A stretch of 64,000 nucleotides of DNA from Gekko japonicus (lineage: Eukaryota), in NCBI RefSeq assembly GCF_001447785.1, contig NW_015173751.1, forward strand, positions 18,875 through 82,874, written 5' to 3'. A program made the position numbers and the translations under genes. Under the pieces are notes generated by a model that had not been told where the DNA came from, did no database searches, and saw nothing but the letters and a program-made list of their open reading frames with translations. Shown piece by piece: positions 3,152 to 51,353 of the stretch. Within the stretch, counting starts at the first letter, position 1. Every line of letters starts with the position of its first letter.

Positions 3152-4285
3152 NGTGAGCGAACTTGAGGCCTCAGGCATGTCTTCTGGTTCCATTCTGGAT
3201 TATTTCAGTTCACTCAGTCTTGAGAAAGTTGACAGATTGCTCTCAACTGTATGCCCAACCACATGGAGCCTTGATCCGTGTCCTTCATGGCTTATAAAAG
3301 CTGGCCGTCTAGCATGGAAGTGTCATCCAGTCCGGCTTCCAGCCAGGCCATGGGACGGAAATGGCACTGGTTGCCCTCACAGATGACTTCCGAAGGTATC
3401 TGGATTGAGGTGGTACAGCGGTACTGTTGTTGTTGGACCTGTCAGCGGTGTTCGACATGGTCGACCATCAGTTACTGATCCACCACCTCCCTGACATTGG
3501 GATCCAGGTGCTTGCCTTGCAATGGCTCGTCTCCTTCCTCCAATGTCGGGGACAGAGGGTGGCATTAGGGGAACAGACTTCCCAGAGGTACTTACTGGTT
3601 TGCGGGGTCCCTCAAAAGATGGTGCTGTCCCTGATGTTATTTAACATCTACATGCGCCCCCTCACCCAGATTGCCCAAAGGCATAACCTAGGGTGTCATC
3701 AATACGCTGATGACACCCAGCTATATCTGTTGTTGGGCGGTCAGTCCAACTCTACCCCAGATGACCTGGAGTGGGTGCTTCAGGACATGGTGGGCTGGCT
3801 TAGACTGAGTACTGAATCTGATGAAGACGGAGGTCCTGTGCCTGAGTCGGAGTGGGCCGGGGTTAGGGATCCCACTCCCAACCTTCGATGGGGCACCATT
3901 GGTGCCAGCGCCAAAGGTTAGGAGCTTGGGAGTGCTCCTGGATGCCGCCTTAACAATGGAGGCCCAGGTAGCAGCCACTGCCAAGGCAGCCTTTTACCAT
4001 CTATGGCTGATTAGGCAGCTGGTTCCCTTCCTGAAACGCAATGACCAGGCAACGGTGATTCATGCTATGGTCACCTCAAGATTAGACTACTGTAATGCTC
4101 TCTACATGGGGCTGCCCTTGTCTCAGATTTGGAAGCTGCAGCTAGTGCAAAATGCAGCAGCCAGGCTGTCGATGGATCTCTCAATATGGGACCACATCCA
4201 GCCTGTGCTGAAGGCATTGCACTGGCTGCCAGTAGCTTACCGGATTCATTTCAAGGTGCTGTTTTTGACCTTTAAAGCCCTATAT
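3152..4285 (+). mobile_element. L2-clade LINE ORF2 (reverse transcriptase) fragment, frameshifted, internally deleted, 3' truncated
   Basis: Motifs LDPCPSWLIK, QSGFQPGHGTE, LLDLSAVFDMVDH, GVPQ, YADDTQLY, TSRLDYCNALYMGLP and LHWLPVAYRIHFKVL across ORFs 3427-3921 and 3821-4300. Confidence 0.92.
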
Positions 4286-4685
4286 TGTTGCTCAAAGTAG
4301 CTTCTTAAGCCTCCCAGAATCACCCCAAGGAAGAAAAACTGATCCAAAATTTGTTCCACGTTCACAGTAGAAACTGTGCAATCAGGTTAGCCACTCTGAG
4401 AAGAATGATGAAGATGTGAACAACTAGAGTCAACCATGTCAGTTTCCCTTCCCGATGCAAAGAGATCAGGTAGATGAGGGATGGATAAACAAACACAAAG
4501 GCCAGGCCACATGTTGCTCCAGAATACCTTATGATTCCACCTATGTTAGGGTATAATATGGCCATGGCAACACCAACGCCAACAACTGCAATGTTCAAAA
4601 CCAATACATGGAAAATACTCGGGTAAACATTCCCAAAAACATGTCCTAAAAGCTGGACCCGTGCCAAGTAACCAAGCAGTGGGTA
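4286..4685 (-). pseudogene. SLC38A9: Processed pseudogene fragment of SLC38A9 (lysosomal arginine-sensing amino acid transporter): C-terminal 107 codons plus probable start of the 3' UTR
   Basis: 4685-4362 translates as [107 protein letters not shown], matching the vertebrate SLC38A9 C-terminus as I recall it. Homology starts abruptly with no polypyrimidine-AG acceptor, and I saw no upstream exons. Confidence 0.9.
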
Positions 4686-13076: not shown

Positions 13077-14724
13077 GGGGGGCGTGGCAGCTGTCCTTCT
13101 GGTCGGCTGCAGCTCTACCGCTCTCCTGCTATCCCCGATAGAAAATAATGCTTAGCTCCTCAACAAACAAAGTAATTTTGTTAAAACTTGCAATGCCAGA
13201 CATGGGAAGGACTGGGGGGGAGGAGCTAGAAACCTGCCTTATAAACCACCGAGGAAAGGCACTATTGACTAGGAAGAATCAGACCAAGAGACTTCTTTGC
13301 TTGAAGAAATGGCGGCAGTGGGAGGAAAACTAGACCAAAGTTATCAGGCTCCAATTGCACAGGCATTAACAGAAATAAAAGAAGAAATAAAAAGTTAGAT
13401 TAAAAACTTTGAGTTGTGATGTCAGGCAATTAAGGAAGGAATTCACACAGCTTAAGCTCGTAATTAACCCGATAAATCAAAAATTGGACGAACTTACCTC
13501 ATCTGTGAAAACAATGGGGGGGAAAGCAGAATCCACGTTTCAAATTGCCAGAAAAGCGGCTGATGATTTGTTGGAGTTACAAGAGTTTGAAAAGTGGGCT
13601 AAGAAAAAAATTATCCTTCAAGAGACCAGGTTAAGAGAAAGAAAAGCGAAACTCCATGGAGTTTCCTCCAACTTTTGTACGACAGGAGATCTTAAAGAGG
13701 AACTAAACAAATAGCTCCAGCAGACTCTTCAATTGGTGGGAGACGCAGAGACTTCAGAAGAGATAATAACCTCGGCCAGGGCTCCCGTAGGCATCTCGGC
13801 AGATATTATTGTGGAGTTCAAGGAGCTACAGACTAGAAACAGACTTTTTAAAATAGCACGAGAAAAACAAGGTCTGGCCCTTGAAGATACATGTGTTTTT
13901 TTGTATGCTGACATCATGCCAGAGGTCCTTATTGCGAGACAAAGACTATGTGAAACAGCAAAGACATTGAGAGAAAAAGAGATCCCTTACAGATGGTTAG
14001 TGCTTGGCCACCTGGTGGTCAATATAAATAATAAAAAGTTTTCAGCACATAATGAGACAATGGGTAAAAAGTTAGTGGAGGTTGTTATTAAACTGAAGGA
14101 AGGAGGTGTTTGAAGGGAATAATGTGTTCTGGCATTGATATTTAGGTTATAAAGTGAGCATGAAAAAATAACTGAAAGTTGGGTTTATTAGTATAGGAAA
14201 AGATTTAAACTTTAAATATTATTAAGCAAGAATGTTATACAAGTGTAAAGTGATAGATTAGGGTATAGCAAGGAGGCATAGAGTGTGCCCCCCTCTAAGA
14301 CCTCCAGTATAGGGTGGGAGGAGGTTTCCCCTCCCACTGTAGAGTCCTTCTCTTCAGCACCCATAATTGGAGGCAACTCCTTCCAACTTTTCTTTTCAGG
14401 AACAGAAGAGGATGGGTAGTAGAAATTGATGCTGGAATGAACTGAAGATAAGGAATGTATTAAGGATAATTATAAGTTTTGGGGGAAGTTGTATGGGGAC
14501 CTAATTAACTGGTAAGATAGGGACATAAGAAAGGAGGAGGGATTAAACGAGATCAAAAAGGATTGGGTTGATGACATAGTAACCTCGGGGGACTTTTTCT
14601 TTTCTTTTTTTGCTTGGTTATCACTTGTGTTAAAAAGATTGAAAATGAGTATATCAACAAGATGCTTAATGAATTGTGTGTATGTAGATTGATAGATATA
14701 CTCAATTAAAAATATTAGTTAAAA
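13077..14724 (+). mobile_element. ORF1-only L1 derivative (HAL1-like), apparently full length with TSD
   Basis: GGGGGGCG start; degenerate ORF1p ~13194-14113 (coiled coil, ETRLRERKAKLHGV, ADIIVEF, FLYADIMPEVLIARQRL, LREKEIPYRWL); ~610 bp non-coding 3' region; ATTAAA and A tail; 15-bp TSD aaatg(a/t)cctgatcat at 13062-13076 and 14725-14739. Confidence 0.85.
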
Positions 14725-14789
14725 AAATGTCCTGATCATTGCTTGCAGATCACACTGATATTGAAGGAACACTTAGAGGGACCAGTATA

Positions 14790-14827
14790 GACTGGCTTTC
14801 GAGCAAGGGAACCTTTACCTTTACCTT
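14790..14827 (+). mobile_element. Sauria SINE 3' stub with (ACCTTT)n tail, between two copies of a 140-bp duplication
   Basis: gactggctttcgagcaagggaacctttacctttacctt matches the 3' end of the Sauria SINE at 58262-58296 (reverse complement). Confidence 0.85.
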
Positions 14828-17475
14828 TATATCAACAAGATGCTGAATGAATTGTGTGTATGTAGATTGATAGATATACTCAATTAAAAATATTAGTTAA
14901 AAAAATGTCCTGATCATTGCTTGCAGATCACACTGATATTGAAGGAACACTTAGAGGGACCAGTATAAATGTTGACAACTTTACCACAGAGTGGTATATG
15001 AGCAGTGGAGTTTTGACTTGTTTGTAGCTTTTGTTCTCAAGCAGGAGTGCTATTGTGCCTGTTGGCAAGGGGAGAAGAGGGTCTATCCATTTCCTACCCC
15101 AGACAACACAACAGGCTAAATCCTCTCCAGACTGTGCCTATGATACAAATTTTTCTGGTTACTGACATGCGTTGACATTCAATTCAACATGCTGGTTCTT
15201 ATGATACAAATTTTTCTGGTTACTGACATGCTTTGACATTCAATTCAACATGCTGGTCCATAAAGCTCTATGTGGTCTGAGCCCCATATTTATTTATTTA
15301 TTTAGGAAAAAAACCAACCCTCTATCCAGAAACCTACCTAAAGCAGCTTACAATATCTCTGCCCTATGAATCTTTGTTTCACTTTAGATTTTTTCTGAAC
15401 TTTCTACTGAGTGTCCCATCTCCAAAATCCTTGAAATCTGCTACAGATCAGGTATGTTCCCGATCAGGTGATCTTTGGAACATTTTTCCAGAGGAGGTCA
15501 GGAAAGCATTTAGCTTGCTGGAGTTCTAGAGACATTGCAAAGTCTTATTGTTTTAAATATTCAAGATGTTTTGGCAATAGAGTAAGCAAAGATATAAGTA
15601 ACCGTAGATTAGATGTTTGGAAGCACTTGCATCACCAAGAATCATGTGTCCAAATTATGTGTTTCCAAACTGTGGCATCCATAAATAATCAATTTTGTCC
15701 TTCTAAAAATTAGAGTTTGGGATCCTAATTGCAGAACTGGAAATCAAGACCATATATCCTTAGGCTAAATACTACACTAAGGGCACACTTGGTAATGTAT
15801 CATAAACCAGAGGATCTAAATAAATAATGCAGATACATGTGATTTATGTATCATACTTGTGAATATGGTAGGTGTCAAAGTATAATGTACTGTAATAACT
15901 GTCTATACATTTTTATTTCATCCTTCCATTAAGGAGCTCAGAACAGAAAACATGGTTCCCCCGTACACACATTTTGTCCTTGCCACAGCTCTGTGAGTTA
16001 AATTAGCCTGAGATAGAATGACTTGCCCAAGTTTACCCTGTGAACTTCGTGGGCGAATGGTGATTTGAACCTATGTCTCTCAGATCCTAGTCCAACACTT
16101 GAACTGTTATGCAATATTCTGGTGTGTTACGTGGTAACCAAAACTGCCACATCATAATGGAAAGAGGAGTGTAAATGGATAAGATGTGGGGTGCTAGACT
16201 GGATTTTTTTAAAAAAAGGAAACAATTTACAAGTTTCTGATAAGAGTATGTACATTGCAGGTTATACAGTTCTGATGTAATGTAATATACATACCCTTTT
16301 AATTTCTCTGTTTCTGAATTTCAAATATATATTCTCTCCCTTGGCTCATGAATACATATGACTGTGTCTAGTTTTACTGAGACAGAAAATAGCCTGGCAT
16401 AGCTATATGGATAGCTCTGGTATTTGTGTGCTGGATAGGAAAAGAATTTTTCATTTCATACATCATTTACAAAGTGCTATATCTTTTCAATAATGTCACT
16501 CTATATACCAATTCCTAAAGAAACAGACCTGACTGCTCTACTGGTGTAAAAAGGGGATTCTATATACCAATTCCTAAAGAAACAGACTGCTCTACTGGTG
16601 TAAAAAGGGGGTAGCTTTGTGGAAGTCAATAGAGAGACACAAACTTACATCAAATGAGGGTCAGACCAAATGACAATATAAAAGAAAAAGAAAGAGAGAC
16701 TTTCCCCCCAGGGTTTGTCTAAATTCTGCATTGCTCCTGCACGTCCTCACCTTTTTCACAGCATGCTGTCTGAGCTTTGGCACCTACCAGTGATCCCAAG
16801 TGAATGCCAAGGGACTGCAATTTCATGCCGTCTTCACATTATGTCTATGTCCTTTCGATTGGCATCTTTTCTCCTTGGTCCAAAAGGAGTTGTGCACAAA
16901 ATATTGGCCCCTATGAAATACCGGTGCCTCTGCCTTACAATGCTGCCAGCAACAAGTAAATAAGGCCAGGCCAAATGGCATCAGCGTCAGAGCACATTTG
17001 TCCTCATACACAAGTGACAAAGAGAGCAAAGGAAGTGGATGAACAAGTGGTGGCAGGTTTCCATCACTCTTGTAGTGGTAAAACAGCAGCAATACCAGTA
17101 ACTGCAACAGAACTAGTAGCAGGCCTTCTCGCAAGCTGCATGATGCCAGTGGAATGCTGGTGGAGCTGGAGGCAGAGGTGCTAAGCCGCCCCCCTGAGCT
17201 TCTGTTGCCTGTCACTGCTTTTTTAAAAAAGCAGTTACAGGCATTATGATGTCACTTCTGGGGAAAACTGAGGCATGACAGTGGCACTGTAGCTTTAGGA
17301 ATTTCTAGAAATTCTATTGTTTTATGCAGCCCCCTTTCTTTATGTCTCCACCCCCCAACCATTTTGTTGAGCTTGGCAACCCTAGCAGAAAGACTATAAG
17401 ACAGGGAAGTAATTTTGTGCCATTCCACAGCCAAGTACGGTAGCCAGTTGAAGCTAACCCCCCACCCAGAAGATT

Positions 17476-23264: not shown

Positions 23265-24247
23265 TATTTATTATTTATTTATTTATTATTCAACTTATAC
23301 CCCTCCCTCCCCGCCACCCAGGCTCAGGCAGCTTACTTTCGTTAAAACGTTCATAGTATATAAATAACAATGAAAATCTGGTAGAATCATCACAAAACAA
23401 TTTGAATCAGAATAGTACTACTAAGTGCTGCTGATATTTCTCTAATTATACAAGGCGGCGTACTTTGTAAGTTTTCAGTTTCTCGATGTTCTTCACATAA
23501 CCGGCCCTCGAGGCTGGGAGTTGGTGGTGATAGTAGGAGCAGCTCCTAGTTGAAAGCCTGGTGGAAGACCTCTGTCTTGCAGGCCCTGCAGAACTGTGAG
23601 AGGTCCCGCAGGGCCCTGATCTCTTCCAGGAGCTCATTCCACCAGTATGGAACCACCACTGAAAAGGACCTGACCCTGGTGGTAGTGAGCCTGGCTTCCT
23701 TAGGACCAGGGAGGGTCAATCGATTCTGAGACCCCGGCCGTAGTACTATCTGGGGTATATAGGGAAAGGCAATCCCTCAGGTATGTCGGACCCTGGCCAT
23801 ATAGGGCTTTATAGGTAAGTACCAGTACCTTGAAGTGAATTCGGTATGCTATTGGCAGCCAGAGCAGTGTTCTCAGAACAGGCTTGATGTGCACTAGCTG
23901 CAGCTTCCGAATTTGCAACAAGGGCAGCCCCATGTAGAGAGCATTACAGTAGTCCAGTCTCGAGGTGACCATAGCATGGATCACTGTGACCAAGTCATTG
24001 CGGTCCAGGAAGGGAGCCAACTGCCTGACCAGCCGCAGATGGTAGAAGGCCGACAAGGCAGTGGCTGCTACCTGAGCCTCCATTGTTAAGGAGGTATCCA
24101 GGAGCACTCCCAGACTCCTAACCTCTGACACTGTCACCCATGGGGGGGACCCCATCAAAGGTTGGGAGTGGGATCCCCACCCCTGAACCACCCTGACTCA
24201 AGCGCAGGACCTCCATCTTTGCCGGATTCGACTTCAGCCGACTCAGG
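23265..24247 (-). mobile_element. L2-clade LINE 3' fragment with (TAAA)n tail
   Basis: ORF 23700-24191 (VRSLGVLLDTSLTMEAQV, TSRLDYCNALYMGLP, YKALYGQGPTYLRD) is closely related to the L2 at 3152-4285; (ttta)n at ~23265-23290. Confidence 0.9.
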
Positions 24248-42367: not shown

Positions 42368-42982
42368 TGGGAGTTAGACATGGGAACAAGTGGAATATGT
42401 TGGAAAAATAGTTAAATATTCAGAGATTGCAATGGATCTTTGCTTCACCGGAGAGGAGACATTTTTTTCTATGTAAAAATCTGTATTTCTAAGGGAAGGA
42501 TTCACAGGAAATCTACAAAACAACAACACCTAAGACTACAACTTTACACTTTTGACCATACGGTCTACAACAATGGAGATTCTTCTTCTTCTTGACACCT
42601 AGAAGGAAATCACCTAAATGCATTAACCAATGATTGTTAGTAAATAGGCTTCAGTTTCCCAGGCTTTCTTCCCATTGGCTTTCTGCCAGGTTCCCTTCCA
42701 GGTCAGTCTAAACAATAGCACACAAGGTAAACACATTTGACCCTATAATGACTGGATTTTAGACCTTGCAACACACATATTTCCAACAAGATCATTGGGG
42801 CCTAGAAGCCTCAAGGCCAGAGGACTAGGAAATAGTTTTGCCTCCATGTTCCATCTCACTAGCACAAGGAACTTAGAATGGGGGAAGGTGGCTTGCTTAA
42901 TTGTGCCTACATGCAGCTGCACGGTATGTGGTCACATGTATAATGACACACCTAATCAGACCACCTAGCTAGCAACACAATT

Positions 42983-44633
42983 TTTTTAAGCCCCCAGAGG
43001 GGATTTTTTTAATACTACAAAAACTACCAAGAAAAAATAGGGAAAGGGTAACTACAACTAGGGAGAAAGAAAAGCAACCCACACTAAAAACCCAAGGTTA
43101 GGAGATCATTCCCTGTTAAGCTACTGTTAGTAATAAAAAAAGAAAAGCTATTAATAAACAATGTACTTTGTGAGAACCTATCTTTCTAAGCTTATATGTT
43201 TGTTTGCTACTTGTTATGAGAGGATTTCCTGAGCATCTCCTCCAGCTCACTTCATAAAGGCAATTTTCAGAGCCCTTCCGCCTTTACATCTACACTACGA
43301 CTCTCTAAAATCTTAATAGCTTCTTAGACGTTCACTCCANNNNNNNNNNNNNNNNNNNNNNNNNNNNNNNNNNNNNNNNNNNNNNNNNNNNNNNNNNNNN
43401 NNNNNNNNNNNNNNNNNNNNNNACTAAAAACCCAAGGTTAGGAGATCATTCCCTGTTAAGCTACCATTAGTAATAAAAAAGAAAAGCTGTTAATAAACAA
43501 TATACTTTGTGAGAACCTGTCTTTCTAAGCTTATATGTTAGTTTGCTTGTTACTTGATATGAGAAGATTTCCCGAGCATCTCCTCCAGCTCGCTTCATAA
43601 AGGCAATTTTCAGAGTCCTTCCGCCTTTACACCTACACTGAGACTCTCTAAAATCTTAATAGCTTCTTAGACGTCACTCCAAATTCTGCAGCCCAGTCTT
43701 CCTCTGTCTTCAAAGGGATAAAAATACCAATCTTGAGCCTCTTCCTCTCTGGTCTCACCCTCAGGGCCCAGTGGCATCTCAAAAGTTTCTTGATTGTGAA
43801 GGCAAATTCAAGCTCTTTTCTCTCAGCAAGATTTAAGATGACACTTTCTGAGGACACTTGCAAGGAAGGAGTTAAGTCCATGTAAATCTTTTCTGTTTCT
43901 CTTGTACTTTCCCTCCTTTTCTCGTTGAAATCGCTGTTTAATTTAATGTCCATCTCTTTCGCTTTAAAAGCCCTCAGTTCCATTTTTTCTGTTATCGTTG
44001 CCAACTGGAGCTGCCGGGACACAAATTGTTGATTTATCTTGGCAAGCTGCTGGACAATACCAACAAGTTGCTCCAGAATCGTCTTGGTGGCTACCGCTAT
44101 AGAGGTTTCGGGGGGGATTTTGCTTCAAAGTATCCGTTTACAATCATTTCTCTCTCTCCCCCCCCCCTCCGCTTATGTAAATGCATCTGAGAGGCGTCCC
44201 TCTCTCAGCACAATTCCGATCGCTCAAAAAGTTTTTCCTTTGGGAGGGGGGTTCTCTTCTGAAGACAATTTGCTCATTTTAACTCACAGTTCGCTTCTTA
44301 ACTCACTGTTCATTGTTGGTCTTTATCTTGACCACACTCTTGATCGCTCCTCCACTAGATCTTTTGCACTTGACCGGTTCAACACAGCTTATGGCCTTGC
44401 TGAGAGGATGCAGTCAGCGGGAGGGACCGTCAGGGCGGAGGGGAGCCACCATCTCCCTGCAGGTAGCAGGAAAAAAGGCCCACCCTCAAAAGCCCTATGA
44501 CCTGGGAGTTCCCCCCAAACTCCTGTGGAGGTGCTGATCCAGTGGCACCCCTCCCCCTCGCTGATATACAACACACCTTCCCAAAGAGCTGGAAAAGGTG
44601 TCCGCCATCGCTGTGCTGTAGACCCCGCCCTCC
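42983..44633 (-). mobile_element. Non-autonomous retrotransposon with a single orphan ORF and 16-bp TSD
   Basis: Perfect direct repeat agctagcaacacaatt at 42967-42982 and 44634-44649; GC-rich 5' end GGAGGGCGGGG...GATGGCGG; stop-free frame 44124-43648; short A tail on the minus strand. Confidence 0.8.
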
Positions 44634-45250
44634 AGCTAGCAACACAATTGACTGGTCAACTAGACTCAGGCCAACTGCTGGCAGTTTGGCATAAAGTAAA
44701 ACCCTTCATTCTAGTTTTGCACCTTTCTAGTTTGGATATCTCTTGATTTGTGGGCCAAATTGGGCCTTGCATGTCCAGAACACATGCTCTTGGACTTTGA
44801 AACTTTGCCTAGATTCCATGTCTCAGTCTGATCAGGTAGCATTTGGATTAGAGAACCAAAGCTTGTGTAAATATCTTAGGTTGGCTATTTAGATTTTATT
44901 TTTTTTCCCTTGTTTGTCATTGCTCTTATATTTGTATATTCCTACACATTTCTTTTAATAAACCTCCTGTGGTGTTTTTTTTTTTTTTGGGGGGGGGGGT
45001 TGGGGATTCAATCTAAATTCCGTATTTTAGCCTTCATTGGCTACTGATACCAGAGTAATTGTTTTTGAAACTCAGCTTGCAAATGTCCCACCCAGAAGGG
45101 CTAGAGACTCTGTCCCTTGTTCTCTGGCTGGAGGGTTAGAAAAACGGACTGGTTACCCTGGGGTTGTGAGGATTCAGTCCCCTGCATTTTGTGTTTGTTT
45201 TGCCTGACCTGTCTCTTTAGAAGTTTGCCAGGGAGAACCATGTACTGAGA

Positions 45251-50185: not shown

Positions 50186-51353
50186 CATAGAAAGGGGAAA
50201 ACAATATCAGCCCAAGTCATCTTTCTAGTTCTAACTCCATCTTTGTCCCTCCATTCTGCTCATGCTGTTCTGTTCTTCTGTTCTGACCCTAAGAACAAAG
50301 AAATGGAAGTTTCTCCACAAGGCCGCACCCCTTGAGTATGTGCAGAATAGTCAGTCTTAAGATCACCTCATTAAGAATAAGACCTCCCCCTTGTTGGTGG
50401 GAAGATTCTACTTGGCACCCAATTGGTTCTATCCTACACTTGTTTACTAGCTTAAGAAACACCATCTTAACCCTTTCATGACAGAGAGGATGACACTTGC
50501 ACAACTCAACAGTAGGCTATAACTCTGCTTAGGCTAGCACTGAGAAACATGATGGAGCTTTAAAGAACATTGCCCATTTCTTTAACCTCATTTATATTTC
50601 TTAAAGAATTTTTAAAAGATATCCTTTATGGTAGGGAAGATTATATTGTTTTAATCCTTTGAATGCTGCAGATTCAATCATTACTTTTTAAAAGTTTCTA
50701 CAACACAAATGTACAATGATGAATCAGATCTGCATGGAGATTGAAACTGTAACACAAATATCCACAGGTCATAGAAAGGGGAAAACAATATCAGCCCAAG
50801 TCATCTTTCTAGTTCTAACTCCATCTTTGTCCCTCCATTCTGCTCATGCTGTTCTGTTCTTCTGTTCTGACCCTAAGAACAAAGAAATGGAAGTTTCCCC
50901 ACAAGGCCGCACCCCTTGAGTATGTGCAGAATAGTCAGTCTTAAGATCACCTCATTAAGAATAAGACCTCCCCCTTGTTGGTGGGAAGATTCTACTTGGC
51001 ACCCAATTGGTTCTATCCTACACTTGTTTACTAGCTTAAGAAACACCATCTTAACCCTTTCATGACAGAGAGGATGACACTTGCACAACTCAACAGTAGG
51101 CTATAACTCTGCTTAGGCTAGCACTGAGAAACATGATGGAGCTTTAAAGAACATTGCCCATTTCTTTAACCTCATTTATATTTCTTAAAGAATTTTTAAA
51201 AGATATCCTTTATGGTAGGGAAGATTATATTGTTTTAATCCTTTGAATGCTGCAGATTCAATCATTACTTTTTAAAAGTTTCTACAACACAAATGTACAA
51301 TGATGAATCAGATCTGCATGGAGATTGAAACTGTAACACAAATATCCACAGGT
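50186..51353. repeat. 584-bp tandem duplication (2 copies)
   Basis: 50186-50769 and 50770-51353 differ by only one substitution that I could find (ttctcc vs ttcccc); duplicated ORFs 50289 and 50873 are offset by 584. Confidence 0.95.

What the first reader, a model, noticed from the sequence alone, without database searches (positions are those of the whole stretch)
42967..44649. Second TSD-flanked ORF2-less retroelement carrying an orphan helical protein
Seen: perfect 16-bp TSD; L1-like GC-rich 5' end with a YY1-like GATGGCGG about 25 nt in; a stop-free ~158-codon frame (SKIPPETSIAVATKTILEQLVGIVQQLAKINQQFVSRQLQLATITEKMEL...KIYMDLTPSLQ...LLRF*) with an in-frame ATG at 44277 behind three stops; T-rich 3' region and short A tail. 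It shows no similarity to the element at 13 kb and lacks clear ORF1p RRM motifs. Inference: a non-autonomous L1-mobilised family encoding a truncated or novel coiled-coil protein, possibly an ORF1p-interacting parasite. Two unrelated ORF2-less coding retroelements within 30 kb suggest that this class is abundant and under-annotated in this genome.
Basis: partly seen in the sequence, partly recalled or inferred. Interest (0 to 1): 0.72.

Follow-up and report, generated by a model that had tools for sequence, protein, structure and literature searches.

The report
Half-LINE-1 missing its RNA-binding domain
A few hundred copies of a 1.6-kb lizard jumping gene lack both the copying enzyme of LINE-1 and the RNA-binding middle of their one remaining protein, yet the shortened gene stayed in frame across its subfamilies, so the stub protein likely still helps the element ride on complete LINE-1s; the copy in this window is broken.

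Summary
The element is real, and its protein is not an orphan. It is one copy of a roughly 1.6-kb, TSD-flanked, A-tailed, ORF2-less family of about 300 copies in at least seven subfamilies, in what is probably a gecko. Intact copies encode 167 aa. This is L1 ORF1p with about 115 residues removed in frame (end of the coiled coil, whole RRM, start of the CTD) plus 8 from the CTD. The parent type is a sister half-L1 (HAL1) family with full ORF1p that shares the 5' end, N-terminus and 3' UTR. The frame is kept between subfamilies (omega 0.49; 4 of 4 indels in frame), but against an empirical neutral control the signal is modest (p = 0.02). A model supports a coiled-coil trimer. The window copy is dead: a private 295-bp deletion removed its ATG, so the ATG at 44277 is only a uORF start. 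Its 'LLRF' end lies in 371 bp identical to another locus, beside the gap, and the gap hides no ORF2. The scan noted other HAL1-like families in this genome before, one with a clipped ORF1. Verdict: a new variant of HAL1; function inferred.

The parts
44634..44649 (-). 5' target-site duplication (16 bp)
   Evidence: exact repeat; family boundary agrees
42967..42982 (-). 3' target-site duplication (16 bp)
42983..44633 (-). whole element: damaged copy of subfamily A of a ~1.6-kb HAL1-type family
   Evidence: 94% identical to the subfamily consensus over the part 5' of the gap
44290..44633 (-). GC/CpG-rich 5' UTR, presumed internal Pol II promoter, with GATGGCGG at 44609-44602
   Evidence: 62% identical over 324-375 bp to the 5' end of the sister HAL1; promoter function inferred from the YY1-type motif of L1 5' ends (PMC5381506, passages)
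44224..44277 (-).
44102..44250 (-). first unit of a ~115-bp tandem repeat in the 5' UTR; the second unit is deleted in this copy
44101..44102 (-). junction of a private 295-bp deletion (consensus 532-826) that removes the second repeat, the true ATG and about 23 codons
   Evidence: the junction pattern has 1 match genome-wide, this copy
43939..44100 (-). ORF remnant, codons 24-77: N-terminal part of the ORF1p coiled coil
   Evidence: HHalign to sister ORF1p P=96.4, E=1.2e-9; helix with pLDDT about 86-94 over residues 21-70; trimer interface residues 16-77
43738..43905 (-). ORF remnant, codons 89-144: degenerate ORF1p CTD, following the coiled coil with no RRM in between
   Evidence: shuffle tests; multiple alignment
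43423..43793 (-). 371 bp identical to another genomic copy (L002), carrying the 1-bp deletion that gives the 'LLRF' end; likely assembled from that copy's reads
43340..43422 (.). 83-base N gap; about 110 bp of element expected here, no room for ORF2
42983..43339 (-). local 3' part: end of ORF (GVNV-stop), 3' UTR, T-rich tract, terminal hairpin (42990-43002), short A tail

Best explanation
This is a broken copy of an ORF2-less LINE-1 derivative (HAL1 type) whose intact copies encode an ORF1p lacking the RRM, and that stub protein likely still forms a coiled-coil trimer that helps its own RNA join LINE-1 particles and borrow ORF2p. Shown: family structure, absence of ORF2, descent of the protein from ORF1p by in-frame deletions, L1-type target sites, frame kept between subfamilies, loss of the ATG in this copy. 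Inferred: transcription from the GC-rich 5' end; reverse transcription by ORF2p of an autonomous L1 through the A tail; a cis role of the stub. In that role the retained basic N-terminus and coiled coil would co-assemble or co-condense with full-length ORF1p from L1 or the sister HAL1s, which supply the RRM, and the basic C-terminal patch would hold the RNA loosely.
For: Family: 193 exact matches of one 21-mer (control 0), carried by 61 of 99 sampled loci, so about 300 copies. 71 of 99 loci have both ends; the 65 of these without N span 1,321-1,897 bp, median 1,585. 56 of 71 have a TSD of 13-26 bp, against 0 in shifted control windows; sites read T-Y then A-A-R-A. An ORF2 endonuclease hit appears in 1 of 99 loci, outside the element on the other strand; 4 of 40 further loci have ORF2 pieces, all outside the element. 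Origin: residues 1-72 match sister ORF1p 1-79 (P=96.4). The sister matches ORF2-linked L1 ORF1p (P=99.9). Residues 89-~158 match the sister's CTD, reached by 0-15 of 1000 shuffles for 9 of 9 queries. One alignment gap covers the RRM in all 6 focal-type proteins aligned. 5' UTR 62% and 3' UTR 65-84% identical to ORF1-only sisters. Selection: omega 0.49, LRT p=1.5e-4; pairwise dN/dS below 1 in 21 of 21 pairs; 4 of 4 indels in codons 1-150 keep the frame against 36 of 95 private ones, p=0.024; other frames give 5-15 stop-involving changes against 0; two Gekko kuhli proteins at 54-62% identity keep the full frame to the same end. Trimer model score 0.59, best of 3 controls 0.28. The mark was reached by 21 of 30 microbial self-pairs and 0 of 23 single chains (eukaryotes 17 of 29 and 0 of 30); runs share at least 23% of contacts, pLDDT at least 50; the pass may be from memory of solved coiled coils. 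In human L1, N-terminus plus coiled coil heterodimerises with full ORF1p (PMC5605252, section 18), and deleting RRM and CTD did not abolish condensation in vitro (PMC10202459, section 7, citing Newton 2021).
Against: Selection on amino acids is weak. Against private mutations the odds ratio is 0.62, p=0.02, and non-CpG sites alone are not significant (p=0.24 and 0.08). The codon model ignores CpG decay. The last ~15 codons are frameshifted in 4 of 7 subfamilies. Both UTRs diverge less than synonymous sites, so RNA-level constraint may matter as much. The CTD remnant lacks the strand with the conserved Trp and is not folded in the model (pLDDT about 41-53). DNA-level support for the C-half match is clear only for subfamilies A and D, borderline for B and absent for four. 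In human cells truncated ORF1p suppresses L1 rather than helping it, and an RRM mutant is dead in cis. No autonomous partner was identified: none of 16 loci fetched around L1 ORF1 hits has an ORF2-bearing element sharing the ends. 70 of the 99 loci were picked by protein score, which favours open frames.
Confidence: 0.55

Rival explanations
1. The frame matters but the protein hardly does: the RNA has to be translated (to stay stable, avoid decay or sit on ribosomes where new ORF2p is captured), so any open frame of this length is kept.
For: Frame kept at the RRM deletion and at 4 of 4 later indels; omega only about 0.5-0.6; free C-terminal frameshifts; long branch from the sister ORF1p; UTRs more conserved than synonymous sites.
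Against: The heptad region is the best-kept part and models as a trimer interface; omega below 1 is still significant.
Confidence: 0.25
2. The ORF is a decaying relict. The element now moves like a SINE on L1 proteins supplied in trans, and the open frame persists only because few source copies over a short time gave rise to the subfamilies.
For: RRM gone; non-CpG test not significant alone; sampling favoured open frames; no evidence of translation.
Against: No stop and no frameshift in codons 1-150 across 7 subfamilies with dS up to 0.54; the frame persists at 54-62% identity in Gekko kuhli proteins; no ORF-less subfamily among 40 copies picked by DNA pattern, whose breaks are copy-specific.
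Confidence: 0.12
3. The stub is a competitor or poison: it joins full-length ORF1p trimers and lowers retrotransposition of L1 or sister HAL1s, freeing ORF2p for this RNA or benefiting the host.
For: Human N-terminus plus coiled-coil fragments cut L1 activity in trans to as little as 4% and heterodimerise with ORF1p (PMC5605252, section 18); the retained part is of that type.
Against: The family depends on L1 ORF2p; a benefit in trans is shared with ORF-less copies and would not keep the frame on the source lineage; similarity to the coiled coil of autonomous L1 ORF1p is not detectable directly.
Confidence: 0.08

Closest known systems
HAL1 (half-L1) of mammals (Smit 1999; Bao and Jurka 2010, not held; seen only through passages of PMC5753468, PMC3627910 and PMC5786205)
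   Same: L1-derived, non-autonomous, encodes only ORF1p, arose by loss of ORF2, coding capacity kept over time.
   Different: Here in a lizard, and the ORF1p itself is cut down. HAL1b ORF1p is drawn with coiled coil, RRM and CTD (PMC7586669, passages); this protein has no RRM and a damaged CTD.
Sister ORF1-only families in the same genome (S1: L207-L236, L253-L272; S2: L276-L305; the 13-kb family: L170-L199)
   Same: 1.6-1.8 kb, no ORF2 in cis; S1 and S2 share the 5' end, ORF1p segments, 3' UTR and terminal hairpin.
   Different: They keep a full 306-316-aa ORF1p with RRM and CTD. The focal family is closer to S1 at the 5' end and N-terminus and to S2 at the 3' end.
ORF1-only LINE derivatives HeT-A (Jockey clade) and Ag-Sponge (CR1 clade)
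   Same: One ORF1 protein, proposed to multimerise with proteins of the autonomous partner (PMC5786205, passages); ORF1-only lineages can give rise to new ORF1-only lineages (PMC13534243, passages).
   Different: Other LINE clades; no loss of the RNA-binding domain appears in the passages read.
Truncated human ORF1p (N-terminus plus coiled coil; PMC5605252, abstract and section 18)
   Same: Same retained module; able to join full-length ORF1p.
   Different: Those come from stop codons in dead or engineered L1 copies and suppress in trans; this is an in-frame internal deletion fixed in a family that kept amplifying.

Membership tests
HAL1 | Non-LTR insertion hallmarks (variable TSD, A tail, no LTR) | tested here: met
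   56 of 71 two-ended copies with a 13-26-bp TSD, control 0; A tails
HAL1 | No ORF2 in any copy | tested here: met
   65 N-free two-ended copies are 1.3-1.9 kb; ORF2 hits only outside the element in 1 of 99 loci (endonuclease query) and 4 of 40 loci; about 139 of some 300 copies examined
HAL1 | Single ORF homologous to L1 ORF1p | tested here: met
   through the sister family; direct Pfam, PDB and Atlas searches find nothing
HAL1 | Coding capacity maintained on the source lineage | tested here: met
   omega 0.49, 4 of 4 indels in frame; modest against the empirical neutral control (p=0.02)
HAL1 | Mobilised by ORF2p of an autonomous L1 | tested here: inconclusive
   target-site pattern fits L1 endonuclease; partner not found among 16 loci around L1 ORF1 hits; no assay
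Canonical L1 ORF1p (type II) | Coiled coil that trimerises | tested here: inconclusive
   long helix predicted; trimer model 0.59 against best control 0.28 supports but does not show it
Canonical L1 ORF1p (type II) | RRM domain | tested here: not met
   sister residues ~99-211, including the weak PF02994 match at 117-191, fall in one gap
Canonical L1 ORF1p (type II) | Intact CTD | tested here: not met
   remnant detectable but its first strand and 8 residues with the conserved Trp are missing; unfolded in the model
Autonomous L1 | ORF2 with endonuclease and reverse transcriptase | tested here: not met
Named Repbase or Dfam family | Match to a curated consensus | not testable with these tools
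   no repeat library is held

The most novel reading that the evidence does not exclude
A 'quarter-L1': a retroelement that shed ORF2 and then the RNA-binding core of ORF1p, and keeps a 167-aa trimeric coiled-coil adaptor under selection to graft its RNA onto ORF1p particles made by other elements. It would be a parasite of ORF1p as well as of ORF2p, and a natural demonstration that ORF1p's cis function can be split from its RRM.
Probability: 0.35. Interest if true: 0.75.

Novelty: new variant of a known kind. Interest (0 to 1): 0.5.

Why it matters
What ORF1p does for its own RNA is a long-standing open question. In human L1 the RRM is essential, and RRM-less fragments act as inhibitors. Here a family amplified through at least seven subfamilies, with relatives in a second gecko genome, and kept an RRM-less frame. 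It stands beside close relatives that still have the full protein, which gives a natural paired test of what coiled-coil assembly alone contributes. It also shows that HAL1-type elements are a large radiation in this lizard genome; the held papers I read describe HAL1 for mammals. The window copy itself has no function to expect.

Tried and rejected
Direct family searches with the protein found nothing specific: Pfam on the window frame and on 26 aligned members gave only scattered coiled-coil hits under the cut-offs; PDB sequences none under E 0.05; ESM Atlas gave coiled-coil look-alikes at 0.85-0.90 with low recognition, rejected as leads. Whole-profile comparisons with autonomous L1 ORF1p (P=0.6) and with the 13-kb family (P=0.05) were negative; the link appeared only through the sister family. 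The first C-half test was invalid because my sister consensus had a frameshift; it was redone on a natural ORF. The first selection comparison (p=0.0007) set all shared changes against non-CpG private ones and is superseded by the stratified test. The AlphaFold model of the sister ORF1p was poor (pLDDT 46) and no fold search was run on either model. The tree places the family next to S1 with only 77% support on a long branch; no donor is claimed. Expression: no RNA holder listed. Raw reads of 3 runs from one study lay on a full copy at low depth in both orientations, 65-72% running on into unlike sequence, with no start pile-up. At 97% likeness 2 raw runs and 2 contig sets showed no joint, and the raw runs gave no reads over this copy's 5' 330 bp. 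Both are inconclusive. The 6,888 first-look candidates are not a copy number. A hidden ORF2 in the gap, a real tandem duplication at the gap (less likely than assembly borrowing, not excluded), and a shared deletion subfamily were considered and rejected. Literature searches returned no paper describing an RRM-less HAL1 or a squamate HAL1 in the listings or the passages read. Bao and Jurka 2010 is not held, and Repbase entries or supplements that I could not see may already list this family.

Full report
OBSERVATION. The element lies on the minus strand at 42983-44633 between exact 16-bp repeats, the only match of 9 bp or more between the two end windows. The 5' end is 58% GC with GATGGCGG at nt 25, the 3' region is 46% T, and the 158-codon frame and the ATG at 44277 behind three stops are there.

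FAMILY. A DNA search of the own genome (2.49 Gb) scored 40 of 542 candidates and found copies 91-95% identical. A protein search scored 150 candidates and showed older subfamilies at 70-90%. One 21-mer has 193 exact matches (control 0) and is exact in 61 of 99 sampled loci, so about 300 copies cover that position. Of 99 loci, 71 have both ends; the 65 without N are 1,321-1,897 bp, median 1,585. 56 of the 71 have a 13-26-bp TSD, none in shifted control windows. The sites read T (36 of 56), C or T (43), then A (45), A (37), purine (42), A (38), which fits L1 endonuclease (recalled consensus TT/AAAA). ORF2 queries hit only outside the element: 1 of 99 loci and 4 of 40. Seven subfamily consensuses were built from 81 N-free copies, which are 2-3% (non-CpG) from their consensus except one 4-copy group at 8%. 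Outside this genome the only relatives are four Gekko kuhli proteins, so the host is probably a gecko.

THE WINDOW COPY. Against the subfamily A consensus it lacks positions 532-826: the second unit of a 5' UTR tandem repeat, the true ATG and about 23 codons. The junction is unique in the genome. The ATG at 44277 opens a 17-codon uORF that has 4 codons in subfamilies B and D. Bases 43423-43793 are identical over 371 bp to another copy, L002, whereas the 308 bp before them differ at 19 sites. That stretch carries the 1-bp deletion giving 'LLRF', while the piece beyond the gap reads the family end, GVNV-stop. The simplest reading is that the inner side of the gap was extended with reads from another copy; without the duplicate and the gap the element is 1,309 bp. 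The copy has lost its start codon and is unlikely to make the protein.

THE PROTEIN. Intact copies encode 167 aa (11 of the 29 DNA-picked loci are intact). Pfam, PDB and Atlas searches give nothing specific. The link came from a 49-bp match of the 5' end to another element. That family, S1, encodes a 311-aa ORF1p and has no ORF2 in cis in 20 of 20 further loci fetched with 3-4 kb downstream. S1 ORF1p matches ORF2-linked L1 ORF1p at P=99.9, and a profile of this genome's ORF1 proteins finds solved LINE-1 ORF1p at E 1e-26. Focal residues 1-72 match S1 1-79 (P=96.4, E=1.2e-9). Residues 89 to about 158 match S1 212-290, a score reached by 0-15 of 1000 shuffles for each of 9 queries (HHalign P=58, E=1e-4). 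At DNA level this half is significant for subfamilies D and A, borderline for B and not for four others. The multiple alignment shows one gap over S1 ~99-211 (last heptads, RRM, first CTD strand) and an 8-residue gap that removes the conserved Trp strand, in this genome's proteins and the G. kuhli ones alike. A second ORF1-only family, S2 (316 aa), shares the 3' end more closely, including the same terminal hairpin; S1 shares the 5' end and N-terminus more closely. The tree joins the family to S1 with only 77% support. The model is one helix (14-109), confident at 21-70, with an unresolved C-terminal third. A three-copy model scored 0.59 against a best control of 0.28, interface 16-77. The mark was reached by 21 of 30 microbial self-pairs and 0 of 23 single chains (eukaryotes 17 of 29 and 0 of 30); the runs share at least 23% of contacts, pLDDT is at least 50, and the pass may reflect memory of solved coiled coils. 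The protein is basic (pI 9.9; net +8 over 126-150).

SELECTION. Pairwise dN/dS among the 7 consensuses is 0.23-0.60 (0.31-0.77 with kappa 3); the likelihood estimate is 0.49, p=1.5e-4 against 1. These ignore CpG decay. Against post-insertion private mutations from 121 copies, stratified by CpG, the odds ratio is 0.62, p=0.02; non-CpG sites alone give p=0.24 (40 pattern-picked copies) and 0.08 (81 earlier copies). All 4 indels in codons 1-150 keep the frame, against 36 of 95 private ones (p=0.024), and no stop arises, while other frames show 5-15 stop-involving changes. The last ~15 codons are frameshifted in 4 of 7 subfamilies. Two G. kuhli proteins at 54-62% identity run from the same Met to the same end, though annotation favours open frames. 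The 40 copies picked by DNA pattern all fall in the known subfamilies, with copy-specific breaks. So the frame is kept and the residues are moderately constrained. The UTRs diverge less than synonymous sites.

MECHANISM. Shown: structure, lack of ORF2, ORF1p descent, kept frame. Inferred: Pol II transcription from the 5' end (the YY1-type motif is typical of L1 5' ends, PMC5381506 passages); reverse transcription by borrowed ORF2p via the A tail, since sampled autonomous L1 ends share neither the 3' UTR nor the hairpin; and a cis role for the stub. Selection on a source lineage needs a benefit in cis. In human L1 the N-terminus plus coiled coil joins full-length ORF1p (PMC5605252, abstract and section 18), and loss of RRM and CTD did not abolish condensation in vitro (PMC10202459, abstract and section 7). 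I therefore favour a trimeric adaptor that brings its RNA into particles whose RRMs come from other elements (0.55), over 'translation as such' (0.25), relict (0.12) and competitor (0.08). The same papers cut against it: such fragments suppress human L1, and an RRM mutant is dead in cis. RNA data were uninformative.

KNOWN KINDS AND NOVELTY. It works like, and meets the tested criteria of, HAL1 (passages of PMC5753468, PMC3627910, PMC5786205; Bao and Jurka 2010 not held). It fails membership as a canonical ORF1p: no RRM, damaged CTD, whereas HAL1b is drawn with all three domains (PMC7586669 passages). Passages of PMC5203782 on ORF1p variation show no such case, and ORF1-only lineages begetting new ones is described for Drosophila telomeric elements (PMC13534243 passages). 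Eight literature searches surfaced no RRM-less or squamate HAL1, but Repbase could not be checked. The 13-kb element is another HAL1 type with full ORF1p, unrelated in DNA. Earlier notes of this scan report HAL1-like families in this genome, one with a clipped ORF1; two look-ups by sequence found no note on this family.

VERDICT. Real feature, observation partly corrected, new variant of a known kind, interest 0.5.

Noticed in passing
window 13080-14730 (+); L170-L199: The 13-kb element is a HAL1-type family with a full 306-aa ORF1p and no ORF2 in cis; L189-L191 encode identical proteins, which suggests recent activity.
   Followed up: partly
L253-L257 (for example L255:611-2457): A very young ORF1-only subfamily: 15 places score identically and five fetched copies carry intact ORFs; the parent S1 clade drew 26,112 first-look candidates.
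   Followed up: partly
window 42990-43002; L253-L272, L276-L305, L240:5727: These HAL1 families end in a short hairpin just before the A tail, with different but complementary stems in each family; the autonomous L1 ends inspected lack it. Possibly a cis signal of the ORF1-only clade; covariation was not tested formally.
   Followed up: partly
L047:1256-1403: RNA reads in two runs show a 146-base skip in the 5' UTR just before the start codon: a deleted genomic copy or a processed form.
   Followed up: no
window 50186-51353 and 14650-14967: Near-identical tandem duplications of 584 bp (99.8%) and 140 bp (99.3%), probably assembly overlaps like the one at the 43.3-kb gap.
   Followed up: no
L311: A 5'-truncated focal copy sits inside an old L1 ORF2 on the same strand; L240 and L247 show sister HAL1 copies inserted into L1s.
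   Followed up: no
window 3409-4300 and 23700-24197: Decayed reverse-transcriptase fragments of another LINE clade (CR1/L2-like by recall), 75% alike over 466 bp.
   Followed up: no
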